Virus record (IMG/VR): IMGVR_UViG_3300045988_110279
Source of the DNA: a virus
DNA length: 64,000 nucleotides
Reading direction: 5' to 3' (one strand)
Positions within the stretch are counted from its first letter, which is position 1. Each line of letters starts with the position of its first letter. Both the position numbers and the translations under genes were made by a program. The notes below the pieces were generated by a model, which saw nothing but the letters and a program-made list of their open reading frames with translations, made no database searches and was not told the DNA's origin. Of the stretch, positions 7,652 to 22,305 are shown in pieces.

Positions 7652-7718
7652 GGGTCGCGCCGTTCCTGCGCGACCCGCTCAAATTTTGTATAAAAAAAGA
7701 AGGGCCGAAGCCCTTCTT
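7652..7718 (-). terminator. tandem intrinsic terminators
   Basis: gggtcgcgc...gcgcgaccc and aagaagggc-cgaa-gcccttctt, each followed by a T-run on the minus strand. Confidence 0.6.
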
Positions 7719-8092: not shown

Positions 8093-8119
8093 ATTATTTC
8101 CTTTCTGTCGGGCGGGGCT

Positions 8120-8911: not shown

Positions 8912-8943
8912 AATCTTTGACTTCCTTTCCTCTTGTTGAGTTT

Positions 8944-8972
8944 ATTATAGCACATATCATGCTTGATGTCAA
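8944..8972 (-). promoter_or_regulatory. promoter TTGACA-17-TATAAT
   Basis: Exact consensus on the minus strand upstream of the exonuclease gene. Confidence 0.65.
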
Positions 8973-9137
8973 GAGGAAAAGGAAATTTTTATTGCGATTT
9001 ACTGCAAGCTACTGGGCATTAGAACGGCCTATTCTAACGGCGTTCACTCGACTTACGACACAATATAAATTTACTTCCTTTACTTTCTAAGAGTTCGCGA
9101 CCTCTTGATTTCTTGGCCTTCCCCTCTTGACAAATAT

Positions 9138-9166
9138 ATAATACCATACTTTCGGGATAATTACAA
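9138..9166 (-). promoter_or_regulatory. promoter TTGTAA-17-TATTAT
   Basis: Cassette promoter. A short leader ORF with an AAAGGAAG RBS follows it. Confidence 0.4.
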
Positions 9167-9175
9167 GATGGCAAA

Positions 9176-9207
9176 TTGCACAAAATTTGCAAGCCAAAAT
9201 TGTGCAA
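9176..9207. promoter_or_regulatory. inverted repeat TTGCACAA-N16-TTGTGCAA
   Basis: Best-formed copy of the operator family. Confidence 0.55.
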
Positions 9208-9228
9208 CATCGACAAAAACAAAAACTC

Positions 9229-9300
9229 GGCTCGCCGCGTGCGCCAGCGAGCCGCCCAAACGATATTAAAGAGTAAAAATAAGAGGGCCGAAGCCCTCTT
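9229..9300 (-). terminator. tandem intrinsic terminators
   Basis: ggctcgc...gcgagcc and aagagggc-cgaa-gccctctt with T-runs on the minus strand. Confidence 0.6.
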
Positions 9301-9487
9301 AATATCCAAGATATTCTTTATTAATAATCTCGTCAAGCCAATAGCTCAAATCTTCAAGCGAAATATCGTCATCAATTTCATTGTCGGCCATAACCTGATC
9401 AATTTGACCAATGAGAATGGACGCATTTTTCAATACTTGTCGCTCTTCCTCGCTGAGGATAAGCCTATTAACCTTTCTAATCTTCAT
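9299..9487 (-). CDS. small acidic hypothetical protein
   Basis: Track ORF of 62 aa ending at the terminator. Confidence 0.5.
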   Translation of the reverse strand: MKIRKVNRLILSEEERQVLKNASILIGQIDQVMADNEIDDDISLEDLSYWLDEIINKEYLGY

Positions 9488-9527
9488 TTACAAAACTTCC
9501 TTTCTTATTTTAAGATTGACTGGTGGA

Positions 9528-9992
9528 TTACTCTACCAGTCGCCATAAGGCCGTAGGTAAATCTTCATGCGGTTCGATTGTTTCTCCTAAATGCCAACCA
9601 TCCCGCACACTTTTATTATCGTCAATCAAAATAAAATTGCTAACCCCCGGCTCGAAGTATTTTCGCACACAGTTTGCTTTTGTTGTGCCATATTCCACAA
9701 GGTGGACTTTATGTGCGGGGAAGTTGTATTTTGCAAGCCAAGTGCGCTTTGCATCACGGACAGCGGTTTTATATGAGTTAGAACTGTCTTTTGCAAGCCA
9801 ACTGATAACCCGAATTTCCCAGCCCTGCTCAATAAGTTTATTGAGAACGGTATTCAATTCTTCCATATCGCAAAGAGGTTTAGCGACTGTATATGGATAG
9901 GGGTTTTCATTCATTAAATCTTTCAGCCATCCATCTACGCCGTACAGGTCAGCGATTGTTCCATCCATATCAAAGCAGAGCATCTTTTTCAT
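9528..9992 (-). CDS. HAD-superfamily 5'-nucleotidase-like phosphatase
   Basis: N-terminal CFDMDGTIADL (the DxDGT motif I). Confidence 0.55.
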   Translation of the reverse strand: MKKMLCFDMDGTIADLYGVDGWLKDLMNENPYPYTVAKPLCDMEELNTVLNKLIEQGWEIRVISWLAKDSSNSYKTAVRDAKRTWLAKYNFPAHKVHLVEYGTTKANCVRKYFEPGVSNFILIDDNKSVRDGWHLGETIEPHEDLPTALWRLVE

Positions 9993-10024
9993 TTTGATTT
10001 ACTTCCTTTCTTTAGGTTGATTAA

Positions 10025-10053
10025 AGTATATCAGATTTCGGGATAGAAAACAA
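10025..10053 (-). promoter_or_regulatory. promoter TTGTTT-17-TATACT
   Basis: Cassette promoter upstream of gene 9528..9992. Confidence 0.4.
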
Positions 10054-10061
10054 GAGGCAAA

Positions 10062-10093
10062 CTGCACAAAATTTCGGCTGGAAAATTGTGCAA
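10062..10093. promoter_or_regulatory. inverted repeat CTGCACAA...TTGTGCAA
   Basis: Operator family copy. Confidence 0.5.
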
Positions 10094-10114
10094 CTTCTAC
10101 AAAAGAGAAAATTC

Positions 10115-10193
10115 GGCGCGCCACGCACGTTAGCGCGCCGCCGAGAAGCCTATTCAAAAAATGGGATAAAAAAGAGGGCCGAAGCCCTCTTTT
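10115..10193 (-). terminator. tandem intrinsic terminators
   Basis: ggcgcgc...gcgcgcc and aagagggc-cgaa-gccctctt. Confidence 0.6.
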
Positions 10194-10653
10194 ATCTTTC
10201 ACATATATTTGCAAGAAATCTTGCAGAAAGTTTAACCATGTCATGGACAGATTCTTCGTTATTGCTATTTTTATAGCAAATAAAACCAACCTGGTCGCCA
10301 TTCACAAGAATTGGTGTAATAAACATACTTTCCCATTTTGTCGCCGAACTGCGAATATCAATCCAGTCATCGGGAACTCTTGTAATTCCAAAGGAACGCG
10401 GCCCGCATAAAATTCCATCATTGTCAAAAATAGCCGCGGCGATTCCGTTAGATGAAAGGGCATTTTGCATTTGTTTAGCGTAAGAGGAAAATTCTCCCAT
10501 TATAGAATATTTCTTAAAAACTACGCCGCCATCTTCTTCAAGAAAAATCTCTAATGGGTCGCCTTCTCTAATATGAAGGCTTCTACGGATTTCCTTTGGA
10601 ATTACTATCCGGCCCAAATCATCAATACGGCGCACAATTCCAGTAGCTTTCAT
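10192..10653 (-). CDS. AbrB/SpoVT-family transcriptional regulator (N-terminal swapped-hairpin domain plus C-terminal GAF-like domain)
   Basis: MKATGIVRRIDDLGRIVIPKEIRRSLHIREGDPLEIF matches the AbrB/SpoVT N-domain. Confidence 0.75.
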   Translation of the reverse strand: MKATGIVRRIDDLGRIVIPKEIRRSLHIREGDPLEIFLEEDGGVVFKKYSIMGEFSSYAKQMQNALSSNGIAAAIFDNDGILCGPRSFGITRVPDDWIDIRSSATKWESMFITPILVNGDQVGFICYKNSNNEESVHDMVKLSARFLANICER

Positions 10654-10705
10654 TTTTATCTGCGGGAGTGCAAGATTTATAGTCTTGCACTCCCTTCCTC
10701 CATTC

Positions 10706-11098
10706 TTAATCCAGTTCTTTCAACATCCGTTCGAGGTCAGCTTTAGTACCACCCAACTCAAGCGTAAGAATAATTTCCGTTACGGCATTTTTCTCCCAGT
10801 CGCTAACTTCCCGCATGGCCTTTTTCTTCTCGTTCTCCATAGCGGGGTAAATACAATCCTGGCAAGCCTCTACCAGCCGGTCATTATATCTGCGGAAACT
10901 CATCCCCTTGTTTTTAACCTCCGAAAGAAGTTCGTCGTTAAGGGCTTTTACCGCCTGCTTAACTTTCTCCTGCATGATTTTACACTCTGTCTCATAAGCG
11001 GAAAAGGTTTCATGGACAGCCTGCCTCTTGATTTCAGCCTTTACTCCAACTTCCTTTTCAATATACTCCCGAACAACCTTACTAACACGCATTTCCAA
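10706..11098 (-). CDS. hypothetical protein
   Basis: Track ORF. Confidence 0.5.
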   Translation of the reverse strand: MEMRVSKVVREYIEKEVGVKAEIKRQAVHETFSAYETECKIMQEKVKQAVKALNDELLSEVKNKGMSFRRYNDRLVEACQDCIYPAMENEKKKAMREVSDWEKNAVTEIILTLELGGTKADLERMLKELD

Positions 11099-11144
11099 AA
11101 CTTCCTTTCTTAATTTTAATTTTTATTTATCGGGGTCGCCCCTT

Positions 11145-11180
11145 CCATGGTCTTATTGTACCATAGTTGGGGCGATTTGT
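11145..11180 (-). promoter_or_regulatory. promoter TTGACA-17-TACAAT
   Basis: Minus strand reads ggggTTGACAaatcgccccaactatggTACAAT. Confidence 0.6.
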
Positions 11181-11187
11181 CAACCCC

Positions 11188-11340
11188 TTACATCAAAGTT
11201 TTTGCAAGATACGCAAACATTAAAATCTCCGCCGCAAACATGATTTCAAGTCCTATGCAATCTCTTTCAATAGCGGCTACAAATTGCCATACCAGACATA
11301 GAACAAAAGCAATCAGAATTATCATGGTAAAAGTTGTCAT
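11188..11340 (-). CDS. small membrane protein (~50 aa)
   Basis: Internal start MTTFTMIILIAF with a GGGGTGAG RBS. Confidence 0.4.
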   Translation of the reverse strand: MTTFTMIILIAFVLCLVWQFVAAIERDCIGLEIMFAAEILMFAYLAKTLM

Positions 11341-11344
11341 ATAC

Positions 11345-11602
11345 TCACCCCGCAAAGGAAACTTCCGCAAAGTTGATATTGAAACGCTCCCATTCACTTT
11401 CCATACCTAACATCATATCATGGAAAAGGTCATCACGATTTTCATATCCATCTTCTTCCAGAATAGCCTCCCATTCTCCATCGTCATATTGATTTTCCAG
11501 ATAATCCAAAGCAGACTTGCGGGCGGCGATGGTATTAGACGCTACGCAGATAGGTTTATCGTCGTATCCGTCCGTGACCAAAATCATTTTCTTTTCTTCC
11601 AT
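11345..11602 (-). CDS. acidic hypothetical protein
   Basis: Start MEEKKM with RBS AAAGGAAAG, TGA stop. Confidence 0.45.
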   Translation of the reverse strand: MEEKKMILVTDGYDDKPICVASNTIAARKSALDYLENQYDDGEWEAILEEDGYENRDDLFHDMMLGMESEWERFNINFAEVSFAG

Positions 11603-11655
11603 GATTTTTTCTTTCCTTTCTTTCGAGGTGTTTCTGTCTCCCTCTTTCTGATAAT

Positions 11656-11684
11656 AATATACCACAGGCAAAGCAGAAAGTCAA
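11656..11684 (-). promoter_or_regulatory. promoter TTGACT-17-TATATT
   Basis: Cassette promoter. Confidence 0.45.
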
Positions 11685-11713
11685 GCGATTTTAGGAAAAA
11701 ATCTTTCGTCAGA

Positions 11714-11745
11714 TTGCACAACAATTCGAGCCTAAAATTGTGCAA
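11714..11745. promoter_or_regulatory. inverted repeat ATTGCACAA...TTGTGCAA
   Basis: Operator family copy. Confidence 0.5.
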
Positions 11746-11767
11746 ATTGCCTCTTGATAAAAAATTC

Positions 11768-11835
11768 CGGCCGCGCCTGTGGTGCACGGCCGGGCGAACA
11801 AATAAAAAAAAAGAACCTCCTGAATTTCAGGAGGT
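11768..11835 (-). terminator. tandem intrinsic terminators
   Basis: cggccg...cggccg and acctcctg-aattt-caggaggt. Confidence 0.55.
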
Positions 11836-11875
11836 CATTAATTTCTGCATACCAACAACTCCCTTTCTTTTGAGA

Positions 11876-12106
11876 AGTCAATCGGCATTTTCAACAATCT
11901 TTAATCCGTTTGCTTGGATAATTTTCATAGATTCTTCAAGCGAGGAATCAACCGATCCGCAGTCAATACAGATATATTTTCTACCATCTTTTACCATAGT
12001 AGTGAAATAGTATTCCTAACCGGAAGTAAGTCCCATTTGTTCACGCAAACGAATCGGAATCATAATTCTACCACTTGAATCTAATTTGCGAGAGAAAGTA
12101 GTTTCT
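11876..12106 (-). CDS. AbrB/MazE-like swapped-hairpin DNA-binding protein with one in-frame TAG
   Basis: MQETTFSRKLDSSGRIMIPIRLREQMGLTSG(TAG)EYYF... The frame is complete only if TAG is sense. No obvious SD. Confidence 0.4.
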
Positions 12107-12175
12107 TGCATTTTGATAAATAAATTCTAGTGACCTAGGCTCGTGCGAAAAACGACTCCATCACGGGAATCGCCG

Positions 12176-12313
12176 ATTTAGAACAATCGGAAGGAACATT
12201 TACCACTCGCAAGGCATTTTCTGGCAGAACTGAGACATAGGACAATTTTACAAGAATCCTAGTTCAAACAGAACTCCAAAATAACCGCAAGCGCTTTCAG
12301 CACTTCTAAGGTC
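12176..12313 (-). CDS. small Cys-rich protein (45 aa, one TAG)
   Basis: RBS AAAGGAG 8 nt before the ATG. Confidence 0.3.
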
Positions 12314-12516
12314 ATTAGAAAAACTCCTTTCTTTATTTTTCTATAATTATTATAATATATTTTTTTGAAAAAATCAATAGGGCCGGCATTACGCCAGCCC
12401 TAATCTCTGCAACCAAACCAGATGGTATTTACCAATGTGAAGTAGAACTGTGCCATATCCCTTATCCGTCCAGACAGTGGAGCCGATAGGATATGTGTGC
12501 GGTAAACGCTCAATAC

Positions 12517-12732
12517 TCACTTTAGTTCCACCTCCTCGAAAGCTCCAATTTTTAGCAGATAATTATATAAGGCTCTATCTTGCTTGTCACCGGTATTAAA
12601 ATCAAGTGTACGAACACAGCCGGTAACATTGGAATTGAGAGGATGACCCAAACACCAACCAGCCATATTACAAATTGTGTTTCCAAACTCCGCAGATTTT
12701 TCTACACTTTCAAATTTAATAACAGCAATCAT
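12517..12732 (-). CDS. hypothetical protein
   Basis: Track ORF of 71 aa. Confidence 0.45.
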   Translation of the reverse strand: MIAVIKFESVEKSAEFGNTICNMAGWCLGHPLNSNVTGCVRTLDFNTGDKQDRALYNYLLKIGAFEEVELK

Positions 12733-12755
12733 ATTTATTCCTCCTTTTTATCATG

Positions 12756-12786
12756 GGGAGTGGAGATTTATGGCCTCCACTCCCGC
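12756..12786. promoter_or_regulatory. intergenic hairpin gggagtggag...ctccactccc
   Basis: Perfect 10-bp stem between two minus-strand genes, immediately 5' of an RBS. Confidence 0.5.
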
Positions 12787-12794
12787 AAGTTTTC

Positions 12795-13034
12795 TTAACC
12801 ATCTACATAAATGATTAAATTGTTATCTCTTGCCTCAATGCCGGTTACCTGAAGTCCCAGAACCCATTCCTTAGATACCTCGATTACGTCTCCTCCCAGA
12901 GTTATTCTACCATCAGGTAATTCGTGGTAATGAGCTTGGGTATTCTTATTGATAATTTCGAATCCCTCCCCGTCAAAGAACATAGTATCTTCTGCAAGCG
13001 GAGAAAGTAACCAAGCAACCATATCTAAAGTCAT
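12795..13034 (-). CDS. hypothetical protein (79 aa)
   Basis: Start MTLDMVAW with RBS AAAGGAAG. Confidence 0.45.
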   Translation of the reverse strand: MTLDMVAWLLSPLAEDTMFFDGEGFEIINKNTQAHYHELPDGRITLGGDVIEVSKEWVLGLQVTGIEARDNNLIIYVDG

Positions 13035-13086
13035 TTTTTTACTTCCTTTCAAATTCTTTTTGTGGCCTGTCCCTTTGGACAAGTAT

Positions 13087-13115
13087 ATAATAACACATGG
13101 CAAAAGGAATGTCAA
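13087..13115 (-). promoter_or_regulatory. promoter TTGACA-17-TATTAT
   Basis: Cassette promoter. Confidence 0.55.
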
Positions 13116-13143
13116 GTAATTTCGGGAGAAAAACTTTCGTCGA

Positions 13144-13180
13144 ATTGCACAGACTTTCGGTCATATAATTGTTGAAATTG
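13144..13180. promoter_or_regulatory. degenerate operator inverted repeat ATTGCACAG...ATTGTTGAAATTG
   Basis: Family member. Confidence 0.4.
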
Positions 13181-13198
13181 CCGAATAAATAAAAATTC

Positions 13199-13287
13199 GG
13201 GCCGCGGCGCACGCTGGCGGCCCGGCGAAAAGTCAATATGGAAAAGTGCATAAAAATGACTGGCAATCTTTGTGTAGATTGCCAGTC
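13199..13287 (-). terminator. tandem intrinsic terminators
   Basis: gggccgc...gcggccc and gactggcaatc-tttgtgtag-attgccagtc, both with T-runs on the minus strand. Confidence 0.6.
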
Positions 13288-13300
13288 AAGTATTATTCCT

Positions 13301-13534
13301 TTACAGCTCCATGGTTTCCATGAGATAGCCCGTGCCCATCGGCACCTCCCGCAGATTGCTGGGACTTATACGCAACTTATATTTCCTATTGATTTTATTC
13401 GCCGCACTTGTCTTATCTCTTGCTTGGACAATTACTGGTATATGGAGTTTATTCAGAGTGGGCTTATTAAGACTGAAATATCCCATCTCTCTGCGCTTGC
13501 GGCCCATGGCGTCGATATAAGTCCCTCTATACAT
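13301..13534 (-). CDS. small basic protein
   Basis: Track ORF with AGGAGG RBS. Confidence 0.5.
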   Translation of the reverse strand: MYRGTYIDAMGRKRREMGYFSLNKPTLNKLHIPVIVQARDKTSAANKINRKYKLRISPSNLREVPMGTGYLMETMEL

Positions 13535-13547
13535 TTTTTTCCTCCTA

Positions 13548-13700
13548 TTATTTAGTCATGAGAACGAACATATTATATTCGCTGTGCTGTGGGTTTGGCT
13601 CACAGTTATCCGCCACTATATCAGCCCAACTAAGAACTGCCCAGAGTAGGAGAGCGGCACAAATGCCGCCTCCTATCCGCTTAATAATTCTCATTTCCAT
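13548..13700 (-). CDS. small membrane protein (50 aa)
   Basis: MEMRIIKRIGGGICAALLLWAVL with a GGAGG RBS. Confidence 0.35.
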   Translation of the reverse strand: MEMRIIKRIGGGICAALLLWAVLSWADIVADNCEPNPQHSEYNMFVLMTK

Positions 13701-13993
13701 TTCTTTGCCTCCTGTTCTTTAACCCATTCAGTACCGATTGTATCTCCGACCATAGCAATCTTATATTCGTCTTCGCTTGCAATTCTGGTATGCAGATTGC
13801 TATTGATAAACTTTCTATTGATATAAGCCCAGTGTGGCATATAGGCCACTCGCATGGCATTAAAAGCATCCAGGTCTAAGATGATGCCGTCCTCTACCTC
13901 TGCGGAACACACATTCATCTTATACCGCAAAAGTTTAATAAATTCACGCTTTCTAAAAGTAGGCCCAACGAACCACTTAATATAATTGTTCAT
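13691..13993 (-). CDS. hypothetical protein
   Basis: Track ORF with RBS GGGGAGAAAGG. Confidence 0.5.
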   Translation of the reverse strand: MNNYIKWFVGPTFRKREFIKLLRYKMNVCSAEVEDGIILDLDAFNAMRVAYMPHWAYINRKFINSNLHTRIASEDEYKIAMVGDTIGTEWVKEQEAKKWK

Positions 13994-14038
13994 AGTCTTT
14001 TATCCTTTCTCCCCGTATAGCCGTTAGGTCAGCTTCTT

Positions 14039-14185
14039 TTTAATCTACGATTTCTCCACTGGATAAATCTACAATCCAATGATTGGGATTGACTATCTCG
14101 TGACTGGCTTTCCATCTTGCCATTGAAAGGGTGGATGGTTCATAATAGCGCATTTTCTCATTGGCTAAAACCTGTAATTGATACA
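14039..14185 (-). CDS. small hypothetical protein (48 aa)
   Basis: RBS GAAAGGGG 7 nt before the ATG. Confidence 0.3.
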
Positions 14186-14260
14186 TATAGTATACCCCTT
14201 TCTTTTAATTATTATAACCCTGCCTTGCCTTGTGTTTTGCAAGGCAGGGTTTATAAACTG

Positions 14261-14634
14261 TTATCCTCTAATTTCTTCTTCTTGGGTCTTTGTCGCCCAA
14301 TCAAAAGAGGTACGAATATCGGAAGGTCTGCGGAATTGCTCTGCTTCGGCCTCTGTCCCGCCTAATGCCATAGCATAGGCTTTCCAGTCAACCGTTCCTT
14401 TTGCGGTAGTTTCTTTATATACCACCGCTTTCGCCTTACCCTGCATTTGTACCGTGCCATATAGATAACTTGTTTTGTCCGTAGCCTTAAAAGCCTTACC
14501 TAATCTGGAAAATAGCTCTTTAGCCTTAGCCTTAGCTGCTTTCTCCGCCGCCTCCGCCGCAGACTTAGCCATCTTAGCGGCCATATACTCCATAATAATG
14601 GCTCGATCTTCATTGGTAAAATCAATCTTTTTCA
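14261..14634 (-). CDS. hypothetical protein with Ala/Lys-rich coiled coil (possibly Gam-like)
   Basis: Internal start MKKIDFTNEDR within track ORF 14261..14698. The family assignment is speculative. Confidence 0.4.
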
Positions 14635-14688
14635 TACTCTTTTGACTCCCTTTCTTTTTGTGGTGTGGTTCTCTTTTGTTCTGTCTGT

Positions 14689-14717
14689 ATTGTATCAAAC
14701 CTTTAGCAGTTTGTCAA
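14689..14717 (-). promoter_or_regulatory. promoter TTGACA-17-TACAAT
   Basis: Exact consensus on the minus strand. Confidence 0.65.
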
Positions 14718-14842
14718 TACCTTTTTTGAAATTTTTTAATTTTCAAAGTGCCGTGCTTTTGTCTCTGTCCTACTGGACAAGTCCAGTTTACCACCAAAAT
14801 GTTCACTTGTCAATAGTTTTTTTGAAATTTCTTTCTCTCTCT

Positions 14843-14873
14843 TTTGCACAAAATAAATAACATCTTGTTGTGC
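14843..14873. promoter_or_regulatory. inverted repeat TTGCACAA...TTGTGCAG
   Basis: Operator family copy. Confidence 0.5.
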
Positions 14874-15085
14874 AGTTTGCATAAACCCTTTACGCGCGCG
14901 TATTCCTTTAGGGGTGTGCTTTCTTGCTTTCGTACTTTAACGAGTGAAAGAGGCCAACTACACTTCAATACTTTACCATGTGAAAGAGGGGCGTGTATTT
15001 TGGGAAAAACTGGAAATTTTTTTGTAAAATCGTTCTGCCACGCCATTTCAAAATCTAAATCGACTTTTCAATCTCAATAACGAAA

Positions 15086-15113
15086 AAGAGAGAAGAACTC
15101 ACTTCTTCTCTCC
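15086..15113 (-). terminator. intrinsic terminator
   Basis: gagagaag-aactcac-ttcttctc plus a T-run on the minus strand. Confidence 0.55.
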
Positions 15114-15130
15114 GCATTTACAATATAATC

Positions 15131-15370
15131 TTATCCATCGTCGGTTGCTTCAAAATTAAAAATCAAATTATATCCATCCTCAGTTTCTATCATTTCATAT
15201 CCTTTTAAGATATATCCATCCTCTAGTTTAATATTAGTCGCATCAGATCTCCACATTGTAGGAATATACTCTAGCCTTGGATAACGATCGTTCTCCTTTC
15301 CGCAAGCAGTTAACAACAATACGATTAATATTATGTTAATTATAAAGCTGATACTTCTTCCCAATTTTAT
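15131..15370 (-). CDS. lipoprotein (signal peptide with LTAC lipobox)
   Basis: TTG start after a GGAGG RBS gives LIKLGRSISFIINIILIVLLLTACG... It overlaps the 3' end of the PTH2 gene. Confidence 0.45.
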   Translation of the reverse strand: MKLGRSISFIINIILIVLLLTACGKENDRYPRLEYIPTMWRSDATNIKLEDGYILKGYEMIETEDGYNLIFNFEATDDG

Positions 15371-15773
15371 CAATTTCTTCCGCCTCCATTGGCCTAAATC
15401 CAATACACGTCAAAGTCCCTTCCGGGCCTTCACGCTCTAACTCCGTCCTACAAGCATCATAAATAAGCCAGTAGTCTTTATTCTCTTCCCATCCTAATTC
15501 TTTAGCCATTGCAACAGCTTTTAGCAAATCATTCTTATTCTTCGCTCTACAAACTACTTTGGTCTCCGCTTCCGCTATCCAATTATGGAATAAGTCTCTA
15601 TCGAGGCTTATTCCTATATGATACATAAGACCGTCTCTTTCTTTAACAACTTCTTTACTTCCCCAATATAACTTTTCCAAAAGAAAAGCAATAGAAGCAT
15701 GGGAAACTTGTGCGGCAAGTTTCCCTGGAGACATATTTAAGTCTCGCCTCGCAATAATTAATTGCTTGAACAT
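15336..15773 (-). CDS. peptidyl-tRNA hydrolase, PTH2 family
   Basis: LIIARRDLNMSPGKLAAQVSHAS... with C-terminal ...TLTCIGFRP...KKYQLYN, resembling PTH2 (KMVLVVRxDLKMGKGKxAAQCSHA). Confidence 0.65.
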   Translation of the reverse strand: MFKQLIIARRDLNMSPGKLAAQVSHASIAFLLEKLYWGSKEVVKERDGLMYHIGISLDRDLFHNWIAEAETKVVCRAKNKNDLLKAVAMAKELGWEENKDYWLIYDACRTELEREGPEGTLTCIGFRPMEAEEIDKIGKKYQLYN

Positions 15774-16525
15774 TTTTCCAAAACCTCCAAGAAAATTCTA
15801 AAATTGCGGGAATTGCGGTTTGGAATCGCAAAATAGATATTTGGAATATTATAATTGCGGGCTGCGCTTACGAGCAAGGTGGCGACCGTTGATGGATCTT
15901 GCATAAAAACACCACAGCCCCAGGCTCCCGCGATTAAATTTTCCACTCCCTTAGCCTCGGCAATCCGATACATAAAATTAATTCTCTCTTCCATTATCCT
16001 ATTGTTTAGAGAAAGAGGAACTTGCTGATAAGTATGTGCTGTTCTATAATTAGGAGAAGCACAAGTAATTACATCAGCTAATTTTCTACCATTGTCTTTT
16101 TCAAAGACTACATCAGGAGTATAGATAGCTCTATCAAGATATAGGGCTCGATTTAGTCTCTGTCTATTCCATGCGTAATAAGTATCATCAAAAGCAAGAA
16201 GAATAGGATAAAGGTTGCTTTCGTGACACAATGCCTCTTCTTGTGCAGAGCTGCCTCCAAGGAAGTAACCACCTGGATGTTTATAGCTTGCATAATTTAA
16301 GATTGCGGTCTTGCTCCGATCGGTTAAACCAAATAGACAGGATACGCTATCTTGGTCTTTAAGATAAAAGGTATTATGGTAGGTTTCTTGCGGTTTTAGC
16401 GGAAAAGGAAGATTGGGGCCAAAAATTTCAGAGTTTATAATTGCGCGATCTGTATCTTCCTTGAGTCTCACTTTAATGTCTGCGTAATGCGATTGCGCGT
16501 GTTGTTTGAGCTCTTCTCGTTTCAT
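15758..16525 (-). CDS. macrodomain protein, bacterial PARG-like (DUF2263/TIGR02452-like)
   Basis: HPGGYFLGGSSAQEEALC resembles the PARG GGG-x6-8-QEE signature. Confidence 0.5.
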   Translation of the reverse strand: MKREELKQHAQSHYADIKVRLKEDTDRAIINSEIFGPNLPFPLKPQETYHNTFYLKDQDSVSCLFGLTDRSKTAILNYASYKHPGGYFLGGSSAQEEALCHESNLYPILLAFDDTYYAWNRQRLNRALYLDRAIYTPDVVFEKDNGRKLADVITCASPNYRTAHTYQQVPLSLNNRIMEERINFMYRIAEAKGVENLIAGAWGCGVFMQDPSTVATLLVSAARNYNIPNIYFAIPNRNSRNFRIFLEVLEKCSSN

Positions 16526-16559
16526 TTGCAGTTTCCTTTCTTCCGTGCGGTTGGGCAGA

Positions 16560-16748
16560 AGTGGATAATTTAATTATCCCAATCTTCAAATAAAGTGTGT
16601 AAACTATTTGTTTCCGCCGCTAATCTCTTTAAATATTCTTTAAGCATTTTATTTTCTTTAACTTTAATTGCATAATCGCAAGTATTGTCGCAGTCTGGTG
16701 TGTACTACCGACCGAATCTATTATAACAATAATCAATGCAAGGACACA
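16560..16748 (-). CDS. small Cys-rich protein (one TAG)
   Basis: MSKMCPCIDYCYNRFGR(TAG)YTPDCDNTCDY... Confidence 0.25.
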
Positions 16749-16750
16749 TT

Positions 16751-17098
16751 TTACTCATATTTACATCCATTCATTCTACAGTCTATTGTACATTGCCCTG
16801 AAGCCCCTTCACAAGGAATAGCATCAGGATAGTATTCGAAATAAGACGAGGTTAATAGAACTTCATACCCAAGTTCCCGCAGTATTCTCTCTGCGACATA
16901 CCTATCTCTTAACTTAATCCATTCTTCTCTGTTTACTTTTGTTTCTCTATCTATTTGATTTGAGGTGTCTACATCCACAGTTATAGTTCCATCACTAATA
17001 GAGATGGCCTCATCCAACCTTCTAAACCATTTTTTAAAGGGATTTTGAATATGCAATATATCTTCAGCATATTTGTCAAAATCTTCCGAAAATTTCAT
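16751..17098 (-). CDS. hypothetical protein
   Basis: Internal start MKFSEDFDKY of track ORF 16751..17191, placed so as not to overlap FolD. Confidence 0.4.
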   Translation of the reverse strand: MKFSEDFDKYAEDILHIQNPFKKWFRRLDEAISISDGTITVDVDTSNQIDRETKVNREEWIKLRDRYVAERILRELGYEVLLTSSYFEYYPDAIPCEGASGQCTIDCRMNGCKYE

Positions 17099-17121
17099 TA
17101 TCTTTGTGCCTGTTTCGCTAA

Positions 17122-17885
17122 CTATAAACAATTTTTCATCAACCCCAATCTTGTTAATAGACCTACTCCTCCGGGGACAGGAGTTGACCATACCTTATTT
17201 TTACTTGCAATTTCATCAATTTCTACAAAGTCTCCAAGAATAATTCCTGCTTCATTTCTACGAATACCAACATCTATAACAATAGCATTAGGACAGGCTT
17301 CTCTTGTTAAGCTAAATTTTCCTACCGCAGAGATAATTAAATCCGCTTGTCTTGTTAAATAGAGTTTTGTGTTTATATCTGTTTTACTGTGACACATTGA
17401 TACGGTCATATTTCTATCTAGAAGAGCTTTAGCCATTGGCTTTCCTACAATATCGCTTCTTCCCAAAACAACAGCAGATTTACCTTCGTAGTTAAAGCCA
17501 CATTTATCCAAATAATCTATAATTCCTCTTACTGTTGCTGGAGTAATATTACTCATTGGATTTAATCCATCTGCATCTTTAGAAACAGGTATTTGATTAT
17601 AATTGAAATCAATCCCGTCTGCTATTGGCATTTGGACTATTACAGCATCCCAATCTTTCGCATGGTCTAAAAATAACTTTAATTCTACTGAACTATTAGC
17701 TCTAAATACTTCTGCTTTCCAACCAAGAGCATTAAAGTCTTTTATTTTATTACGAATATAAATTTGATTTGCGGGATCCTAGGCCGTCGCGTCGATAATC
17801 ATGAGAGAAGGAATTGCAGATCTATCAACCAGCAATTTCTCTATCTCTTGTTTAAAATACTCTTTTATATTAATCTATTTCGTCA
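17122..17885 (-). CDS. folD: bifunctional methylenetetrahydrofolate dehydrogenase/cyclohydrolase FolD; two in-frame TAG codons
   Basis: The C-terminal 169 aa (track ORF) match FolD: VVLGRSDIVGKPMA...VIDVGI...TPVPGGVG. The N-terminus DATA(TAG)DPANQIYIRNK and VIVQMPIADGID is recovered only by reading TAG as sense. Confidence 0.7.
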
Positions 17886-18280
17886 TTCTCTGGTTCTAGC
17901 CTCCATGGATCATCAGTATAATAATCTATCATATCATAAAAAGATATACCCTACTCGCTGTCTACTTCTAACACCTAATGAGGTAAGCACTATAATTCGT
18001 ACTAAAAATCTTTATTTATATGATGTGTTGTATAAATATGGACAGCATAAGGTCTCCCGTCTGTAATTCCCTATATATCCCACATATTAATAATGTTCTA
18101 TTGAAATGTCTCTTGGGCATACTATGGAGATACAGCGATACATACAATTAAAATATTAAAATAATACTATGCGTTTTTTGGTAGTGCATTGTAAGGTTCA
18201 TCGAAGAACATTTCTTTATATTCCTCCTACTATTTTCTATTTATATTATAGCATTATAATTTTAATTAATCAAATAAGAT

Positions 18281-18309: not shown

Positions 18310-18333
18310 ATGAGTATAAAAGGAGATGACAGT

Positions 18334-19380
18334 ATGATAAAATTAGATTATACTATTGAGTCTCCAGAAGAGCGAAAAGCGCTTGTCGAAAAAATAATCG
18401 AAGAAAATCCGGATCTTACTCCGAGTTATTTAGAAATATTAGCAGATTATTTAGTTCTATGTATGGAAAAGCAAGAGAAGAAAGAAAAGAATATATTAAC
18501 AGATAATAGAATGGCTACTGTTAATAAAAGAGAATGTTCTTTCGAAGGGCTTGCGTCATAGATGGAAAATGGCGAGGATGGCATTTATGGTTTAATGTCA
18601 GAAAATAAAAATGTTATATTTTAGCCAAAGATTTCTATTACACAGAAAGATTTAGATACTATACCATGTTTAAAATAGTTGAGAGAAACCATTAATGTCT
18701 GGGAGGGCGCTTTAAAACGCGCTGCTGGGACAAAATAGGCATATATGATGAAAAAAGCATTAATAGAGATGCGAAAAGATTAGTATATCATTAAGCAAGC
18801 ATATTAGAAACCTATTATACCATGTAAATTAACGAGATCCGTAAGAACTCATATTCCTCTTGATGATTAGAGTTATCTTAATGGACAGGAGGTAGTGGTA
18901 AAGGGTATTTCGCTAATGGACGCCAATGTTGTTTCTGCTATTTTATGCAATTATTCAAAATTAAAAGAGGATAGTTATGATTAGTTTGAGGGAGATACAT
19001 GGTATTTAATTCAATCATTTGAAGAAATATGTGATAAAGCTCTCAAAGACTTTCCAATCTATTTACGAATTGTTGAACTCAAAATTGATAAAAAGTAGAA
19101 TAACGAAATATAGGAAATATTAAAAAATGAGTTTGGTAAAACATATAGCGTTGAATATATTTCTAGCCTATGGAGAAATAAGATTCCTAAACTCATTGCG
19201 GAAGAGGCTTTAGAAGATTTTTTACGTTGGTAGTATAAACAAAAAGGATACCCAATGAAAAAATGTTCTAAGTGTGGGCAATTAAAGCCAGCCCATAATC
19301 AATTCTTTTCAAAGAATAAGACAAGTAAGGATAATTTGTATAGTATCTGTAAGCGCTGTCGCAATAAGAAAAGAGGTTGA
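18334..19380 (+). CDS. hypothetical protein with C-terminal CxxC...CxxC zinc ribbon; ~13 TAG codons
   Basis: RBS AAAGGAGA then ATG. In frame with track ORF 18169..18561, ending at TGA 19378. Confidence 0.5.
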
Positions 19381-19386
19381 TTATAA

Positions 19387-20556
19387 ATGAGCCATTATTG
19401 TAAAAAATGTGGTAAAACTATGGATGATACATAGTTTTATACATCAAAAAATTTAGAGAAGTATCCTCCAGATGGAAAGATGGATATTTGTAAAAAGTGT
19501 CTTACTATGCACGTAGATAACTGGGATCCAGAAACTTATAAATGGATTTTATAGGAGATTGACGTTCCATATATTAAAGAAGAATGGAATGGTTTATTGG
19601 AAAAATATGGAAAAGATCCAAAGAAAGTTACTGGATTAACTATTATTGGACGCTATTTATCTAAAATGAAATTAAAGCAATGGAATAAATACACTTGGGC
19701 AGATACAGAAACGCTAGAGAAAGATTCCATTGATAAAAAAGTTCTTAATATGAAGGCTCAAGGATTTACAGAAGATGAAATTCAAGAGCAGTTGTCTATT
19801 GATAGAACTCCTCCAAAACCAAAAGAATTAGAGGATGTTTAGGCCCCTGTAGGAACTCCAGAATATGAAGATCCAGAGGAAGATGATGATTTTGGTGATT
19901 AGCTAACCGAAGAAGATAAATTAGTATTACGTCTTAAATGGGGCCGCGGATATTCTTGGGAAGAAAGAGTAAGAATGGAGCAGCTTTACAATGATATGAT
20001 GAGTTCTTATGATATTCAAGGAGCAGGTCATAAAGATACTCTTATTATGGTATGTAAAGCTAGTTTAAAAGCAAATTAGTTAATTGATGCTGGAGATATT
20101 GATGGCTTTTAGAAGATGCAAAAAGCCTATGATAGTTTAATGAAAAGCGGCAAATTTACGGCTGCTTAGAACAAAGGCGAATCCGGTGAATTTGTAGATT
20201 CAATAGGTGAATTGGTAGCCCTTTGCGAAAGAGAGGGTTTTATTCCTAGATATTATACGGAAGGGCCCCAAGATAAAGTAGATAGAACTCTTTAGGATTT
20301 ACAGCAATATACTCATACTCTAGTTACAGAGGAAATGAATCTTGGTAATATGATCGAAGCTTCGTTAAGAGAAATAGTTAAAGACAGAGAACGCGAGGCA
20401 AATATTGATGTTGAAGATAGCGATGAGGATGAAGATTTATTTAATTACGAGCATCCAGAATTAACAGAAGAAGATTATCAAGAGTATGAAGATATGAAAG
20501 AGTCGGAAAGAGACAAAGATGAGGAAATGTTAAATAATATATTAAAGGAGGTTTAA
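19387..20556 (+). CDS. hypothetical protein with N-terminal zinc ribbon and acidic C-terminus (terminase small subunit by position?)
   Basis: MSHYCKKCGKT...CKKC. Frames 19597..19842 and 20335..20556 are joined by TAG readthrough. Confidence 0.45.
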
Positions 20557-20559
20557 TAT

Positions 20560-22305
20560 ATGGCATTAAAAGATTTATTAAACCTTTCAAATAATAATAA
20601 GAAAATTGGCCTTTCCGAAGAAAGAGTTCGTGCGATAATTCCAGCAGCAAGATAGTATATAGCTTTTTGGAGAGAATATCCAGATATGTTTATTGACTTT
20701 TTGTAGACCGGCGGAGACGATACAAGAAAAAAAGAAATTAATTTTTATTTTTATTAGAGAGTTTTCTTGCGGGCGGCTATGAGATATAAGTATGTATACA
20801 TGGTATTTCCTCGTGCCTATTCTAAGTCATTCTTATCAGTAACGGTGCTTATGTGTAGATGTATATTATATCCTGGATGTAAGCTATTCATTACTTCTGG
20901 TGGAAAAGAACAGGCAGCAGGTATAGCAAAAGAAAAAGTCTAGGAAATTTGTAATGCGATTCCCGCGCTTTAGAGAGAGATTGATTGGCGAAGAGGTAAG
21001 ACTTAGGAAGGAAAAGATTATTGTAAGTATATCTTCAAAAATGGATCTTATTTTGACAACGTTGCTGCTAGAGAATCTTCTCGTGGTAAGCGTAGACATG
21101 GAGGATTAATTGAGGAGTGCGTTGGTGTAGATGGGGATATTTTAAATGAAGTTTTAATCCCTCTAATGAACGTTGATAGAAGATGTTTAGATGGATCTGT
21201 TCATGAAGAAGAAACACTCAATAAATCCTAGATTTATGTTACTACTGCGGGGTGGAAAAACACATTCCCATATAATAAGTTGATTACTTTGCTAGTGCGC
21301 ATGATACTAGAACCCGAAAAGAGTATTGTAATGGGCGGAACATGGAGAATTCCTGTGCTAGTGGGATTGCAATCCCGCAACTTTGTATAGGAGTTAAAAC
21401 AAGATGGTACATTTAATGAAGCATCATTTGATAGAGAGTATGAATCTAAATGGAGTGGCACCGTAGAAGATGCCTTCTTTAATGGTGATGCTTTTGATAG
21501 AAGTAGAAAATTGCTTTAGCCTGAATATGAATCTTCCGGGCGCTCTTCTGCTCAAGCATATTATGTTCTTTCTGTTGATGTAGGAAGAAAGAAATGTCAA
21601 TCTGTTGTATGTGTATTTAAAGTAACCCCTCAGTCTCAAGGACCAGCGATTAAGTCTCTTGTTAATATATATACTATGGATGATGAACATTTTGAAGATT
21701 AGGCAATTAAGCTAAAAAGATTATATTATGATTATAAAGCTAAAATTATTGTTATTGACGGTAATGGACTTGGTGCTGGATTGATGGATTATATGGTTAA
21801 ACCACAAATAGTGCCAGATACCAATGAAGTTTTTCCTGATTTTGGTGTAGCTAATGACGAAGATGGAGAATACAAACGATTTAGAACAGATAATACAGAA
21901 TATGATGCTATTTATGAAATTAAGGCAAATGCGCCAATTAATACCGAAGCCCATAGCAATGTTTAGACATAGTTGCGGGCTGGAAAGTTAAGATTTTTAA
22001 TCGACGAAAAAGTTGCTAGAAATAAATTACTTGGTACCAAGAAAGGTCAAGCCATGAAACCAGAAGAGCGGGCAGAATATTTAAAACCATTCACTTTAAC
22101 TTCTATATTAAGAGAAGAAATGCTAAATTTGCGAGAAGAAAATGAGGGTGTAAATATTATTTTAAAACAGGCAAATAAGTCTGTGCCCAAAGATAAATTC
22201 TCTGCGCTTGAATATGGATTATATTATATTAAATAGGAAGAAGATAGTAAACGCAAGCGTAAAAGTAGAAGATTTTCAGATTTTATGTTTATGAGTGAGG
22301 TGTAA
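20560..22305 (+). CDS. terminase large subunit
   Basis: 581-aa frame (track fragments 21781.., 21973..) with ATPase-like and nuclease-like regions (...VIDGNGLGAGLMDYMV...). Many TAG codons. Confidence 0.6.

What the first reader, a model, noticed from the sequence alone, without database searches (positions are those of the whole stretch)
11876..17885. A few early-array genes carry isolated TAG codons (AbrB-like 11876..12106, FolD 17122..17885, small ORFs at 12176 and 16560): candidate suppressor-dependent expression switch
Within the otherwise TAG-free leftward array, a second AbrB/MazE-like DNA-binding protein has one TAG and FolD has two. Both would be truncated unless the suppressor is present. 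For a regulator this would make its production conditional on the recoding machinery, a possible timing device.
Basis: inference. Interest (0 to 1): 0.6.

Follow-up and report, generated by a model that had tools for sequence, protein, structure and literature searches.

The report
Amber codons gate a phage regulator
In a gut phage that reads the stop codon TAG as glutamine, five genes on its leftward strand, including a small AbrB-type DNA-binding regulator and a 38-residue peptide gene just upstream of it, keep in-frame TAGs while their early-gene neighbours avoid TAG completely, so they can only be made in full once the phage's suppressor tRNA is working; this is a clear new example of an already published idea.

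Summary
The in-frame TAGs are real, lie in real genes, and are conserved in over 30 independent assemblies. Corrections to the finding:
- FolD (17098..17886) has three TAGs, not two. Its true stop is TAA.
- A fifth gene was missed: 17870..18211, with 8 TAGs.
- The "small ORF at 12176" is a conserved Cys-rich micro-gene (38 aa in relatives). It sits in the same transcription unit as the AbrB-like gene.

TAG means Gln here. When orthologues replace a TAG, CAA or CAG is the commonest replacement. No tRNA lies in the window, but close relatives carry a tRNA(CUA) about 25 kb beyond its left edge.

The leftward array has two parts:
- A proximal operon (18.2 to 15.1 kb) that tolerates TAG (12 of 37 Gln-like codons).
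- A block of sigma-70 promoter/terminator cassettes (14.8 to 4.8 kb) with 0 TAG in 65 Gln-like codons, against 49% in late genes.

The only exception in that block is the micro-ORF/AbrB2 unit, with one TAG per ORF. All 29 close relatives whose DNA was read keep one TAG in AbrB2, at codon 25 or codon 32. In nine distant lineages the unit is about 10-fold richer in TAG than its neighbours.

Suppressor-dependent, probably delayed production is well supported by inference. Selection for timing is plausible but unproven. The general model was published by Borges et al.

The parts
12349..12377 (-). Promoter-like site TTGATT-17-TATAAT of the micro-ORF/AbrB2 transcription unit. It directly follows the upstream terminator (12402..12378).
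   Evidence: 10/12 match. The hexamers are conserved in relatives. Function is inferred.
12178..12315 (-). Micro-ORF with SD AAAGGAG and an in-frame TAG at codon 19 (12259..12261). In most relatives it encodes a 38-aa Cys-rich peptide, MTLEVLKALAVILEFCLNqDSCKNCPMAQFCQKMPCEW. The window copy has a 1-nt deletion in an A-run, which gives a 45-aa frameshifted tail.
   Evidence: Between L008 and L100 there are 16 synonymous and 3 non-synonymous codon differences, and 18 of 22 substitutions fall at third positions, including after the TAG. TAG at codon 19 is invariant in the 19 distinct close sequences. Gene callers report it as a 38-39-aa gene in distant loci.
12148..12190 (-). Structured spacer. 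Hairpin 1 (12190..12173) is variable and sometimes absent. Hairpin 2 (12172..12153) is followed by U5 (12152..12148) and looks like an attenuator.
   Evidence: In close relatives the stems are invariant and variation is confined to the loops. Hairpin 2 is kept in 12 lineages, with some two-sided changes (CG to UA in 3). It is weak (-4 to -9 kcal/mol) and was not listed by the terminator scan.
12121..12139 (-). Conserved box CCTAGGTCACTAGAATTTA, 9 nt upstream (its 3' end) of the AbrB2 ATG. AbrB2 has no Shine-Dalgarno sequence.
   Evidence: It is nearly invariant across lineages in which AbrB2 is only 57-72% identical. Its role is unknown.
11878..12111 (-). AbrB2, a 77-aa AbrB/SpoVT/MazE-like protein with one in-frame TAG at codon 32 (12016..12018).
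   Evidence: All 29 close relatives whose DNA was read have exactly one TAG. It is at codon 32 (with CAA at 25) or at codon 25 (with CAA, AAA or an Arg codon at 32).
11814..11836 (-). Intrinsic terminator that closes the AbrB2 unit.
   Evidence: 10-bp stem followed by T9.
16570..16770 (-). Cys-rich 66-aa ORF with a TAG at codon 22 (16705..16707).
   Evidence: The TAG is conserved at the same position in both clades, and the divergent clade has a second one.
17098..17886 (-). FolD (methylene-THF dehydrogenase/cyclohydrolase), 262 aa. TAGs lie at codons 4 (17875..17877), 36 (17779..17781) and 255 (17122..17124). The TAA stop overlaps the next gene's ATG (TAATG).
17870..18211 (-). First gene of the leftward proximal operon.
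   Evidence: Its product is 55-71% identical in relatives, which carry 3-6 TAGs.
15087..15113 (-). Terminator that ends the proximal operon. The operon contains orf113, FolD, orf115 (16751..17098), cys66, PARG, PTH2 and the 15131 gene.
4875..14635 (-). TAG-free early block of 22 small genes, excluding the AbrB2 unit. They sit in repeated cassettes made of a terminator, a TTGCACAA..TTGTGCAA inverted repeat and a near-consensus sigma-70 promoter. The block includes a TAG-free SpoVT/AbrB paralogue at 10192..10653.
18310..56669 (+). Rightward packaging/structural block. TAG makes up 49% of its Gln-like codons.

Best explanation
The window is part of a roughly 105-150 kb gut phage that is distantly related to phAss-1 and to Enterococcus phage EF1, and probably infects Clostridia. 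It uses genetic code 15, in which TAG means Gln.

Its genes fall into two translation classes that are set gene by gene.
- Suppressor-independent genes have no in-frame TAG. They include the sigma-70 cassette block at 14.8-4.8 kb, plus PARG and PTH2.
- Suppressor-dependent genes carry in-frame TAG. They include the late block, orf113, FolD, cys66 and the two-ORF micro-ORF/AbrB2 unit.

Early in infection the host's RF1 should terminate at UAG. The micro-ORF would then yield 18 residues. AbrB2 would yield a 31-residue fragment that lacks half of its DNA-binding fold.

A phage tRNA(CUA) lies outside the window. In relatives it sits behind a consensus sigma-70 promoter. Once it accumulates, both ORFs would be read through and the AbrB-type regulator would appear. 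This would make it a delayed regulator inside an early region.

Shown here:
- the meaning of TAG;
- the gene-specific TAG pattern and its conservation;
- the anatomy of the unit;
- the existence of the suppressor in relatives.

Inferred:
- truncation before suppression;
- the delay;
- what AbrB2 regulates.
For: Code and meaning of TAG:
- ORF coverage rises from 0.44 to 0.93 when TAG is read as sense.
- Where window TAGs are replaced in orthologues, the replacement is CAA or CAG in 24 of 50 cases. Where relatives' TAGs are replaced in the window, it is CAA or CAG in 39 of 58 cases.
- AbrB2 swaps TAG and CAA between codons 25 and 32.

Suppressor:
- A tRNA(CUA) is found in 5 close relatives, on the same strand and downstream of a ~27-tRNA array. 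It scores 59.8 bits in Rfam.
- A 12/12 sigma-70 promoter lies about 440 nt upstream of it.

Classes:
- Early block: 0 TAG in 65 Gln-like codons. Late block: 286 in 583. P = 3e-18.
- Proximal operon: 12 in 37.
- Orthologues keep the same per-gene pattern.
- Early genes in relatives sometimes end in TAG.
- The early block has near-consensus promoters and terminators.

The AbrB2 unit as an exception:
- Every one of the 29 close relatives whose DNA was read has one TAG in AbrB2. TAG at micro-ORF codon 19 was seen in all 19 distinct close leader sequences and in the 2 MAG contigs.
- At least 8 different TAG positions occur across the family: micro-ORF codons 3, 10, 19, 29 and 32; AbrB2 codons 25, 29 and 32.
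- In nine distant lineages the unit has 7 TAG in 68 Gln-like codons, against 4 in 380 for its neighbours. Odds ratio 10.8, P = 3e-4.

Fold:
- PDB sequence hits to AbrB cover residues 1-31.
- The model places helix 20-26 and beta-hairpin 36-49 after the TAG.
- The top fold hits are AbrB and SpoVT.
Against: - No expression data exist, so 'early' and 'late' are inferred from promoters, terminators and gene content.
- The suppressor tRNA was found only in relatives, because the window's own genome is not complete here.
- Four distant lineages (L102, L106, L110, L111) have no TAG in the unit. At least L111 is still recoded, with one TAG in FolD. The gate is therefore dispensable.
- The micro-ORF is disrupted in 6 of the 19 distinct close sequences, including the window's copy.
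- Exactly one TAG among four Gln codons is also what neutral late-gene usage would often give.
- The AbrB assignment is below Pfam thresholds, and the structure model is only moderately confident (pLDDT 67).
Confidence: 0.6

Rival explanations
1. Neutral tolerance. The AbrB2 unit, FolD, cys66 and orf113 are expressed, or needed, only at middle or late times for transcriptional reasons. By then the suppressor is already abundant. TAG is then just a synonymous Gln codon that drifts in and out, and it does not set the timing.
For: - TAG number and position drift in FolD (3 to 6) and orf113 (3 to 8).
- TAG positions in the unit move, and some lineages have none.
- The unit's promoter (TTGATT -35) lacks the TTGCACAA..TTGTGCAA cassette found at the typical early promoters. 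It could therefore belong to a different temporal class.
- The unit's TAG share (about 10-40% of Gln-like codons) lies between the early and late shares.
Against: - The unit has a sigma-70-type promoter that host RNA polymerase should recognise from the start.
- None of the 29 close relatives has lost the AbrB2 TAG, although a single TAG-to-CAG transition would remove it. When the TAG left codon 25 it reappeared at codon 32.
- PARG and PTH2 sit in the same operon as FolD and stay TAG-free in all relatives. The TAG content is therefore set per gene rather than per transcript.
Confidence: 0.25
2. A code-switch sensor that works by attenuation. The micro-ORF would act as a leader ORF whose TAG decides where ribosomes stop. 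Stopping at the TAG would leave hairpin 2 and its U-tract free to terminate transcription. Read-through to the natural stop, 8-28 nt before hairpin 2, would melt the hairpin region and let RNA polymerase run into AbrB2. AbrB2 is then gated a second time by its own TAG.
For: - The arrangement of an SD-driven micro-ORF, hairpin(s), a U-tract, a conserved box and an SD-less AbrB2 is conserved across all lineages.
- The spacer DNA is more conserved than the AbrB2 coding sequence.
- In L106 and L109 the stop codon lies 8-10 nt from hairpin 2.
- In the window's frameshifted copy the stop falls inside the loop of hairpin 1, 6 nt from hairpin 2.
- The leader folds better than shuffled sequence (z = -2.7).
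Against: - Hairpin 2 is weak (-4 to -9 kcal/mol), and the terminator scan did not list it.
- Covariation is slight.
- Several lineages have no TAG in the micro-ORF.
- The peptide sequence itself is under purifying selection. This suggests a functional peptide rather than a mere leader.
- The micro-ORF is broken in 6 of 19 close variants, and this is apparently tolerated.
Confidence: 0.1
3. Artefact or decay. The TAGs would be sequencing errors, or nonsense mutations in dying genes.
For: The window's micro-ORF copy does carry a frameshift, and a few relatives carry other indels or a lost start codon.
Against: - The same TAGs recur in over 30 independent assemblies.
- Purifying selection continues downstream of the TAGs.
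- Domain matches span them.
- The genome as a whole is recoded.
Confidence: 0.02

Closest known systems
Stop-codon recoding as a translational regulator in gut phages (Borges et al., bioRxiv 10.1101/2021.08.26.457843, later Nat Microbiol 2022; also the code-15 crAss-like phages, PMC9523058)
   Same: - TAG is read as Gln in a phage whose host presumably uses the standard code.
- A suppressor tRNA is encoded by the phage.
- Early genes are free of in-frame TAG, and structural genes are rich in it.
- The proposed mechanism is the same: TAG-bearing genes wait for the suppressor.
   Different: That work highlights lysis and structural genes as preferentially recoded, and integrases as TAG-free. Here the gated element is a small transcription-factor unit (micro-ORF plus an AbrB-like gene). 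It has its own sigma-70 promoter, sits inside the TAG-free block, has movable TAG positions and shows lineage-wide enrichment. None of this appears in the papers I could search.
phAss-1 / proposed Phassvirus group (PMC10607447)
   Same: - These are human-gut phages of about 136 kb that read TAG as Gln.
- They carry tRNA-Sup(CTA) genes and a large set of tRNAs (36 in phAss-1).
- Their predicted hosts are Clostridia.
- The virion structural protein is about 53% identical over the part that aligns (about 47% of the query), and one 58-nt DNA stretch matches.
   Different: The relationship is distant, with no megablast similarity beyond those 58 nt. That paper reports which ORFs carry TAG. It mentions neither early-block avoidance nor an AbrB-like gene (0 occurrences of 'AbrB' or 'early').
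AbrB / SpoVT / MazE swapped-hairpin DNA-binding proteins
   Same: The N-terminal motif RKLDssGRImIPirLRe aligns with AbrB residues 1-31. The predicted helix and beta-hairpin follow the order seen in the AbrB N-domain. The top fold matches are AbrB, SpoVT and archaeal-virus AbrB-like proteins.
   Different: - Both Pfam scores are just below the curated cut-offs.
- The C-terminal ~25 residues and the invariant ICIDCG motif are not AbrB features.
- No adjacent toxin gene is present, so it is not a MazE-type antitoxin module.
- DNA binding is untested.
Leader-peptide transcription attenuation (trp, pyrBI, ermC type; from general knowledge)
   Same: A short, well-translated upstream ORF ends close to a hairpin and U-tract that lie in front of the regulated gene.
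   Different: No alternative anti-terminator pairing could be identified. The hairpin is weak. The upstream peptide is itself conserved. The proposed input, decoding of UAG, has no precedent that I know of. This is only a resemblance.

Membership tests
Genetic code 15 (TAG to Gln) recoded phage | Genes are fragmented under the standard code and become whole when TAG is read as sense. | tested here: met
   Coverage by ORFs of at least 100 aa rises from 0.44 to 0.93. One 2908-aa ORF contains 101 TAGs.
Genetic code 15 (TAG to Gln) recoded phage | In-frame TAG aligns with Gln in homologues. | tested here: met
   CAA/CAG is the commonest replacement, in 24 of 50 and 39 of 58 replaced sites. AbrB2 codons 25 and 32 swap TAG and CAA. 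TAGs in the micro-ORF fall at Q positions of other lineages.
Genetic code 15 (TAG to Gln) recoded phage | The phage encodes a suppressor tRNA with a CUA anticodon. | tested here: inconclusive
   None is present in the window. One is present in 5 close relatives and in more distant ones. Its sequence alone does not show which amino acid it carries.
Genetic code 15 (TAG to Gln) recoded phage | Peptides show Gln at TAG positions. | not testable with these tools
   This needs proteomics.
AbrB/SpoVT/MazE (SpoVT-AbrB domain) proteins | A sequence match to the family models at the curated threshold. | tested here: not met
   MraZ scores 22.3 against a cut-off of 23. MazE_antitoxin scores 21.5 against 24.7. 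Supporting but weaker evidence: phrog_4681 at E = 6e-8 and PDB AbrB at E = 0.008.
AbrB/SpoVT/MazE (SpoVT-AbrB domain) proteins | The swapped-hairpin beta-alpha-beta fold. | tested here: inconclusive
   The model has pLDDT 67. The top Foldseek hits are AbrB, SpoVT and AbrB-like proteins, but at E = 0.009-0.2. The fold needs a dimer, and no dimer was modelled.
AbrB/SpoVT/MazE (SpoVT-AbrB domain) proteins | DNA binding or transcriptional regulation. | not testable with these tools
FolD (bifunctional methylene-THF dehydrogenase/cyclohydrolase) | Both the catalytic and the NAD(P)-binding domains are present. | tested here: met
   PF00763 scores 36.4 bits (cut-off 32.8). PF02882 scores 131.3 bits (cut-off 27). 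phrog_7320 matches at 4.6e-48.
Intrinsic terminator / attenuator (spacer hairpin 2) | A GC-rich stem immediately followed by a U-tract. | tested here: inconclusive
   A 7-bp stem followed by U5 is conserved in 12 lineages. It is weak, and the scan did not report it.
Early (host-RNA-polymerase-dependent) gene class | Consensus host promoters and expression at the start of infection. | tested here: inconclusive
   Ten sigma-70 sites matching 10-12 of 12 positions, and strong terminators, lie on the - strand. Timing cannot be tested.

The most novel reading that the evidence does not exclude
The micro-ORF/AbrB2 unit may be a dedicated sensor of the phage's own genetic-code switch. Decoding of the UAG in a conserved upstream micro-ORF would decide whether ribosomes reach the hairpin and U-tract in the leader. 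That in turn would decide whether AbrB2 mRNA is completed. A second UAG inside AbrB2 would gate its translation. The AbrB-type regulator would then report 'suppressor active' back to transcription, for example by shutting off the early cassettes.
Probability: 0.12. Interest if true: 0.75.

Novelty: new member of a known kind. Interest (0 to 1): 0.5.

Why it matters
The idea that recoded phages use in-frame stop codons as a clock rests mostly on the contrast between structural or lysis genes and everything else.

This locus offers a sharper test. It is a single small regulator unit, driven by a host-type promoter and embedded among genes that purge TAG completely. Yet it keeps a TAG in every close relative, even when the TAG changes position. 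That points to per-gene selection on TAG content.

It also provides a compact reporter: 77 codons with one TAG, plus a 38-codon partner ORF with one TAG. With this reporter, suppressor-dependent timing could be measured directly.

If the regulator acts on the repeated early-promoter cassettes, it would link the code switch to the shut-off of early transcription.

Tried and rejected
- Suppressor in the window. ARAGORN at default and relaxed thresholds found none, and relaxed settings gave only noise.
- Known RNA family for the conserved leader. Rfam at gathering thresholds found nothing in the window, and the E-value mode returned only sub-threshold sRNA noise. No theta or HDV-like ribozyme was found near the suppressor in L031 at gathering thresholds.
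- Close annotated phage. Megablast gave only one 58-nt hit, to phAss-1.
- The 'small ORF at 12176' as non-coding. I first read it this way because of frame-breaking indels. I withdrew that reading after the synonymous/non-synonymous count in wider relatives.
- TAGs in the orf124 and orf146 orthologues of clade B. These turned out to be a TAG that acts as the stop codon, and an upstream extension that overlaps FolD.
- A miscount of 17 TAGs in the proximal operon. It came from a frame error of mine and was corrected to 12.
- Function of the micro-peptide, cys66 and orf113. Pfam and PHROGs gave nothing usable.
- Identity of the suppressor from sequence similarity. It is 68-71% identical to the phage's Gln(UUG), Trp and Leu tRNAs alike.
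- Host. Two ~148-kb contigs binned with Oscillospiraceae and Eubacterium MAGs are probably whole phage genomes, which is weak evidence only.

Full report
**What the window is.** Reading TAG as a sense codon raises coverage by long ORFs from 0.44 to 0.93. TGA as sense has little effect.

The + strand block from about 18.3 to 56.7 kb encodes packaging and virion proteins, including a terminase-like protein, a virion structural protein and a 2908-aa giant protein. TAG supplies 286 of its 583 Gln-like codons.

Where orthologues in related contigs have replaced a TAG, the commonest replacement is CAA or CAG: 24 of 50 sites in one direction and 39 of 58 in the other. Glu comes a distant second. The window is therefore a code-15 (TAG = Gln) phage.

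Its nearest annotated relatives are remote. One virion protein is about 53% identical to phAss-1 over the part that aligns, and about 40% identical to Enterococcus phage EF1. Only a 58-nt stretch matches at the DNA level.

**The observation.** All coordinates below are on the - strand.
- AbrB-like gene: 11878..12111, 77 aa, TAG at codon 32.
- Small ORF "at 12176": 12178..12315, TAG at codon 19.
- Small ORF "at 16560": 16570..16770, 66 aa, Cys-rich, TAG at codon 22.
- FolD: 17098..17886, 262 aa, TAG at codons 4, 36 and 255.

After that TAG, the tail LAKQAQR followed by TAA TAA is conserved in all seven relatives. The Pfam NAD-binding domain match also runs through it.

One further - strand gene was missed: 17870..18211. 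It is 113 aa, is preceded by GGAGG and has 8 TAGs. Its product is 55-71% identical in relatives, which carry 3-6 TAGs.

**The genes are real and the TAGs are translated.**
- FolD matches both FolD Pfam domains above threshold, and a phage FolD family at 5e-48, across its TAGs.
- AbrB2 matches phrog_4681 across its TAG. It matches B. subtilis AbrB over residues 1-31.
- A structure model built from 22 homologues has pLDDT 67. It places a helix at residues 20-26, a beta-hairpin at 36-49 and a helix at 58-67.
- Its best PDB fold matches are AbrB, SpoVT and AbrB-like archaeal-virus proteins, although the E-values are weak.
- Termination at codon 32 or 25 would therefore remove half of the fold.

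I first took the micro-ORF for non-coding leader, because some copies carry indels. Between relatives L008 and L100, however, it shows 16 synonymous and 3 non-synonymous codon differences. Eighteen of 22 substitutions fall at third positions, including downstream of the TAG. Gene callers report a 38-39-aa product in distant loci.

It is therefore a conserved 38-aa peptide with five cysteines, MTLEVLKALAVILEFCLNqDSCKNCPMAQFCQKMPCEW. The window's copy, like that of L088, has lost one A from an A-run and has a frameshifted 45-aa form.

**Where the suppressor is.** The window has no tRNA gene. I walked along related IMG/VR contigs, which are 98-164 kb long. About 7 kb beyond the window's left edge, on the same strand as the leftward genes, lies an array of about 27 tRNAs, in some contigs with a tmRNA.

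After the array comes an AAA-ATPase gene that already contains TAG. A tRNA with anticodon CUA follows about 6 kb further on. It is flanked by tRNA-Ser and tRNA-Leu genes and scores 59.8 bits in Rfam.

In contig 3300045988_091188 this tRNA lies about 36 kb downstream of AbrB2. A perfect TTGACA-17-TATAAT promoter sits about 440 nt upstream of it.

**Architecture of the leftward strand.** It has two parts.

1. A proximal operon runs from a promoter near 18245..18273 to a terminator at 15113..15087.
   - Gene order and TAG counts: orf113 (8), FolD (3), a 115-aa gene coupled to FolD by a TAATG overlap (0), cys66 (1), a PARG-like gene (0), a PTH2 peptidyl-tRNA hydrolase (0) and a small gene (0).
   - Overall 12 of its 37 Gln-like codons are TAG, not clearly different from the late block (P = 0.06).
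   - Within the operon, the TAG-free genes stay TAG-free in all relatives. TAG content is therefore set gene by gene.

2. A distal block runs from 14.8 to 4.8 kb.
   - It is built from repeated cassettes. Each has a GC-rich terminator, a TTGCACAA..TTGTGCAA inverted repeat and a near-consensus sigma-70 promoter, followed by one to a few small genes with strong SDs.
   - Its 22 genes have 0 TAG against 65 CAA/CAG. The probability of this under late-gene usage is 9e-20 (Fisher P = 3e-18).
   - Off-frame TAG triplets are plentiful in the same genes (57).
   - In relatives, a few genes of this block end in TAG as a stop codon.
   - This is what one expects of genes read with the host's standard code.

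**The exception inside the TAG-free block.** The micro-ORF/AbrB2 unit has these parts:
- its own promoter, TTGATT-17-TATAAT at 12377..12349, without the cassette's inverted repeat;
- the micro-ORF;
- a 95-nt spacer containing two hairpins, the second followed by U5;
- a conserved box, CCTAGGTCACTAGAATTTA;
- AbrB2, which has no SD;
- a strong terminator at 11836..11814.

Each ORF has exactly one TAG. Against its early neighbours in the window the unit gives P = 0.004.

All close relatives keep one TAG in AbrB2. These are 7 IMG/VR contigs, 20 metagenome contigs and 2 MAG contigs.
- It is at codon 32 with CAA at codon 25, or at codon 25 with CAA, AAA or an Arg codon at codon 32.
- It is never at both codons and never absent. 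Recombinant alleles exist.
- TAG at micro-ORF codon 19 is invariant in every close sequence examined.

I examined nine more distant lineages, in which AbrB2 is 57-72% identical.
- TAGs occur at micro-ORF codons 3, 10, 29 and 32, and at AbrB2 codons 25, 29 and 32.
- Four lineages have none.
- Across these nine, the unit has 7 TAG in 68 Gln-like codons. Neighbouring genes have 4 in 380 (odds ratio 10.8, P = 3e-4).

TAG therefore enters and persists in this unit far more often than in the genes around it.

**Most likely mechanism.** Three things are shown: TAG encodes Gln, TAG presence is a stable per-gene property, and a tRNA(CUA) exists in the lineage.

The following is inferred. At the start of infection, RF1 terminates at UAG. 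orf113, FolD, cys66, the micro-peptide and AbrB2 are then made only as fragments. The TAG-free cassette genes, PARG and PTH2 are made in full. As tRNA(CUA) accumulates, the TAG-bearing genes come on.

For AbrB2 this would produce a delayed DNA-binding regulator from a promoter that host polymerase can use at once. What it regulates is unknown. The repeated inverted repeats at the early promoters and its own palindromic box are candidate targets.

This is the mechanism proposed in general terms by Borges et al.. The new element here is its application to a regulator unit embedded in the early region, together with comparative evidence for per-gene maintenance of TAG.

**Rivals.**
- TAG may be merely tolerated because these genes matter only late. 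Supporting this are the drift of TAG number in FolD and orf113, the TAG-free lineages, and the unit's distinct promoter. Against it are the absence of any TAG loss among the close relatives and the relocation of the TAG rather than its loss.
- A bolder reading is that the micro-ORF is a leader whose UAG controls an attenuator (hairpin 2 plus the U-tract). The anatomy fits. However, the hairpin is weak (-4 to -9 kcal/mol) and the terminator scan did not flag it. Covariation is slight, the peptide itself is conserved, and the micro-ORF is broken in 6 of 19 close variants.
- Sequencing error and gene decay are excluded by recurrence and by purifying selection.

**Verdict.** I rate this a well-documented new member of a known kind. 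It has moderate interest as a compact, testable case of suppressor-gated expression.

Noticed in passing
window 4793-13231 (- strand); copies near 5772-5892, 7620-7684, 9141-9261, 10036-10147, 11659-11800, 13087-13231: A regulatory cassette of about 150 nt is repeated 6-7 times. Each copy has a GC-rich terminator, an inverted repeat (TTGCACAA, about 16 nt, TTGTGCAA) and a near-consensus sigma-70 promoter with an extended -10. The inverted repeat looks like an operator shared by the early units. The AbrB2 unit's promoter lacks it.
   Followed up: partly
window 12112-12215 (- strand) and the same region in L008-L113: The spacer between the micro-ORF and AbrB2 is more conserved at the DNA level than the AbrB2 coding sequence. 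It contains two hairpins, a U5 tract and an almost invariant box, CCTAGGTCACTAGAATTTA. AbrB2 has no Shine-Dalgarno sequence, unlike nearly every other gene in the array. Rfam finds no matching family.
   Followed up: partly
window 15336-15773 and 15758-16525 (- strand): A PTH2-type peptidyl-tRNA hydrolase and a microbial PARG-like (poly-ADP-ribose glycohydrolase) gene overlap each other in the same operon as FolD. Both are TAG-free in all relatives. Relatives also carry a tmRNA in their tRNA array. This is a notable set of translation-rescue functions for a recoding phage.
   Followed up: no
window 25596-26285, 27422-27955, 31106-32497, 34065-34604 (+ strand): Four genes inside the heavily recoded late block have no TAG at all. 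One of them is the virion structural protein at 31106-32497, with 12 CAA/CAG and 0 TAG. This may reflect avoidance of TAG in the most highly expressed virion genes.
   Followed up: no
window 34710-43436 (+ strand): A single 2908-aa ORF contains 101 in-frame TAGs. It is followed by a 1304-aa ORF with 26 TAGs.
   Followed up: no
L031 1-18600 and L022-L024, L030-L034 (relatives, beyond the window's left edge): An array of about 27-32 tRNAs spans about 12 kb, in some contigs with a tmRNA (tag DNDYFENYLAA). The CUA suppressor is not in this array. It lies in a second small cluster (Met, Ser, Sup, Leu, Cys) about 7 kb further on. L024:5200-5287 looks like a tRNA-Tyr(GTA) with a long variable arm that ARAGORN did not call.
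   Followed up: partly
L005/L012 clade orthologue of window 14261-14635; L106 3988-4125; L108 8234-8662: Some early-block genes in relatives end in TAG, which is used as a genuine stop codon. Once the suppressor is active they would acquire read-through tails, for example 24 extra residues in clade B.
   Followed up: partly
window 12243-12247 (A-run in the micro-ORF) and the CAGAAAATG run in relatives L092, L095, L096: Length changes in short A-runs shift the micro-ORF frame in several assemblies. In L092 and L095 the shifted frame runs through the spacer and fuses in-frame with AbrB2. Database proteins P0006, P0007 and P0012 are such fusions. It is unclear whether these are real variants or assembly errors.
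   Followed up: partly
window 17096-17100 (- strand): The FolD stop and the start of the next gene overlap as TAATG. FolD's last TAG lies only 8 codons upstream of this coupling junction.
   Followed up: no
window 6000-15000 compared with the rest: The TAG-free early block has a higher G+C content (0.40-0.51 per gene) than the late block (about 0.30-0.35). It is also mosaic among relatives, with several genes replaced or only 26-60% identical. The TAG-bearing genes within the leftward region have late-like G+C (0.30-0.41).
   Followed up: partly
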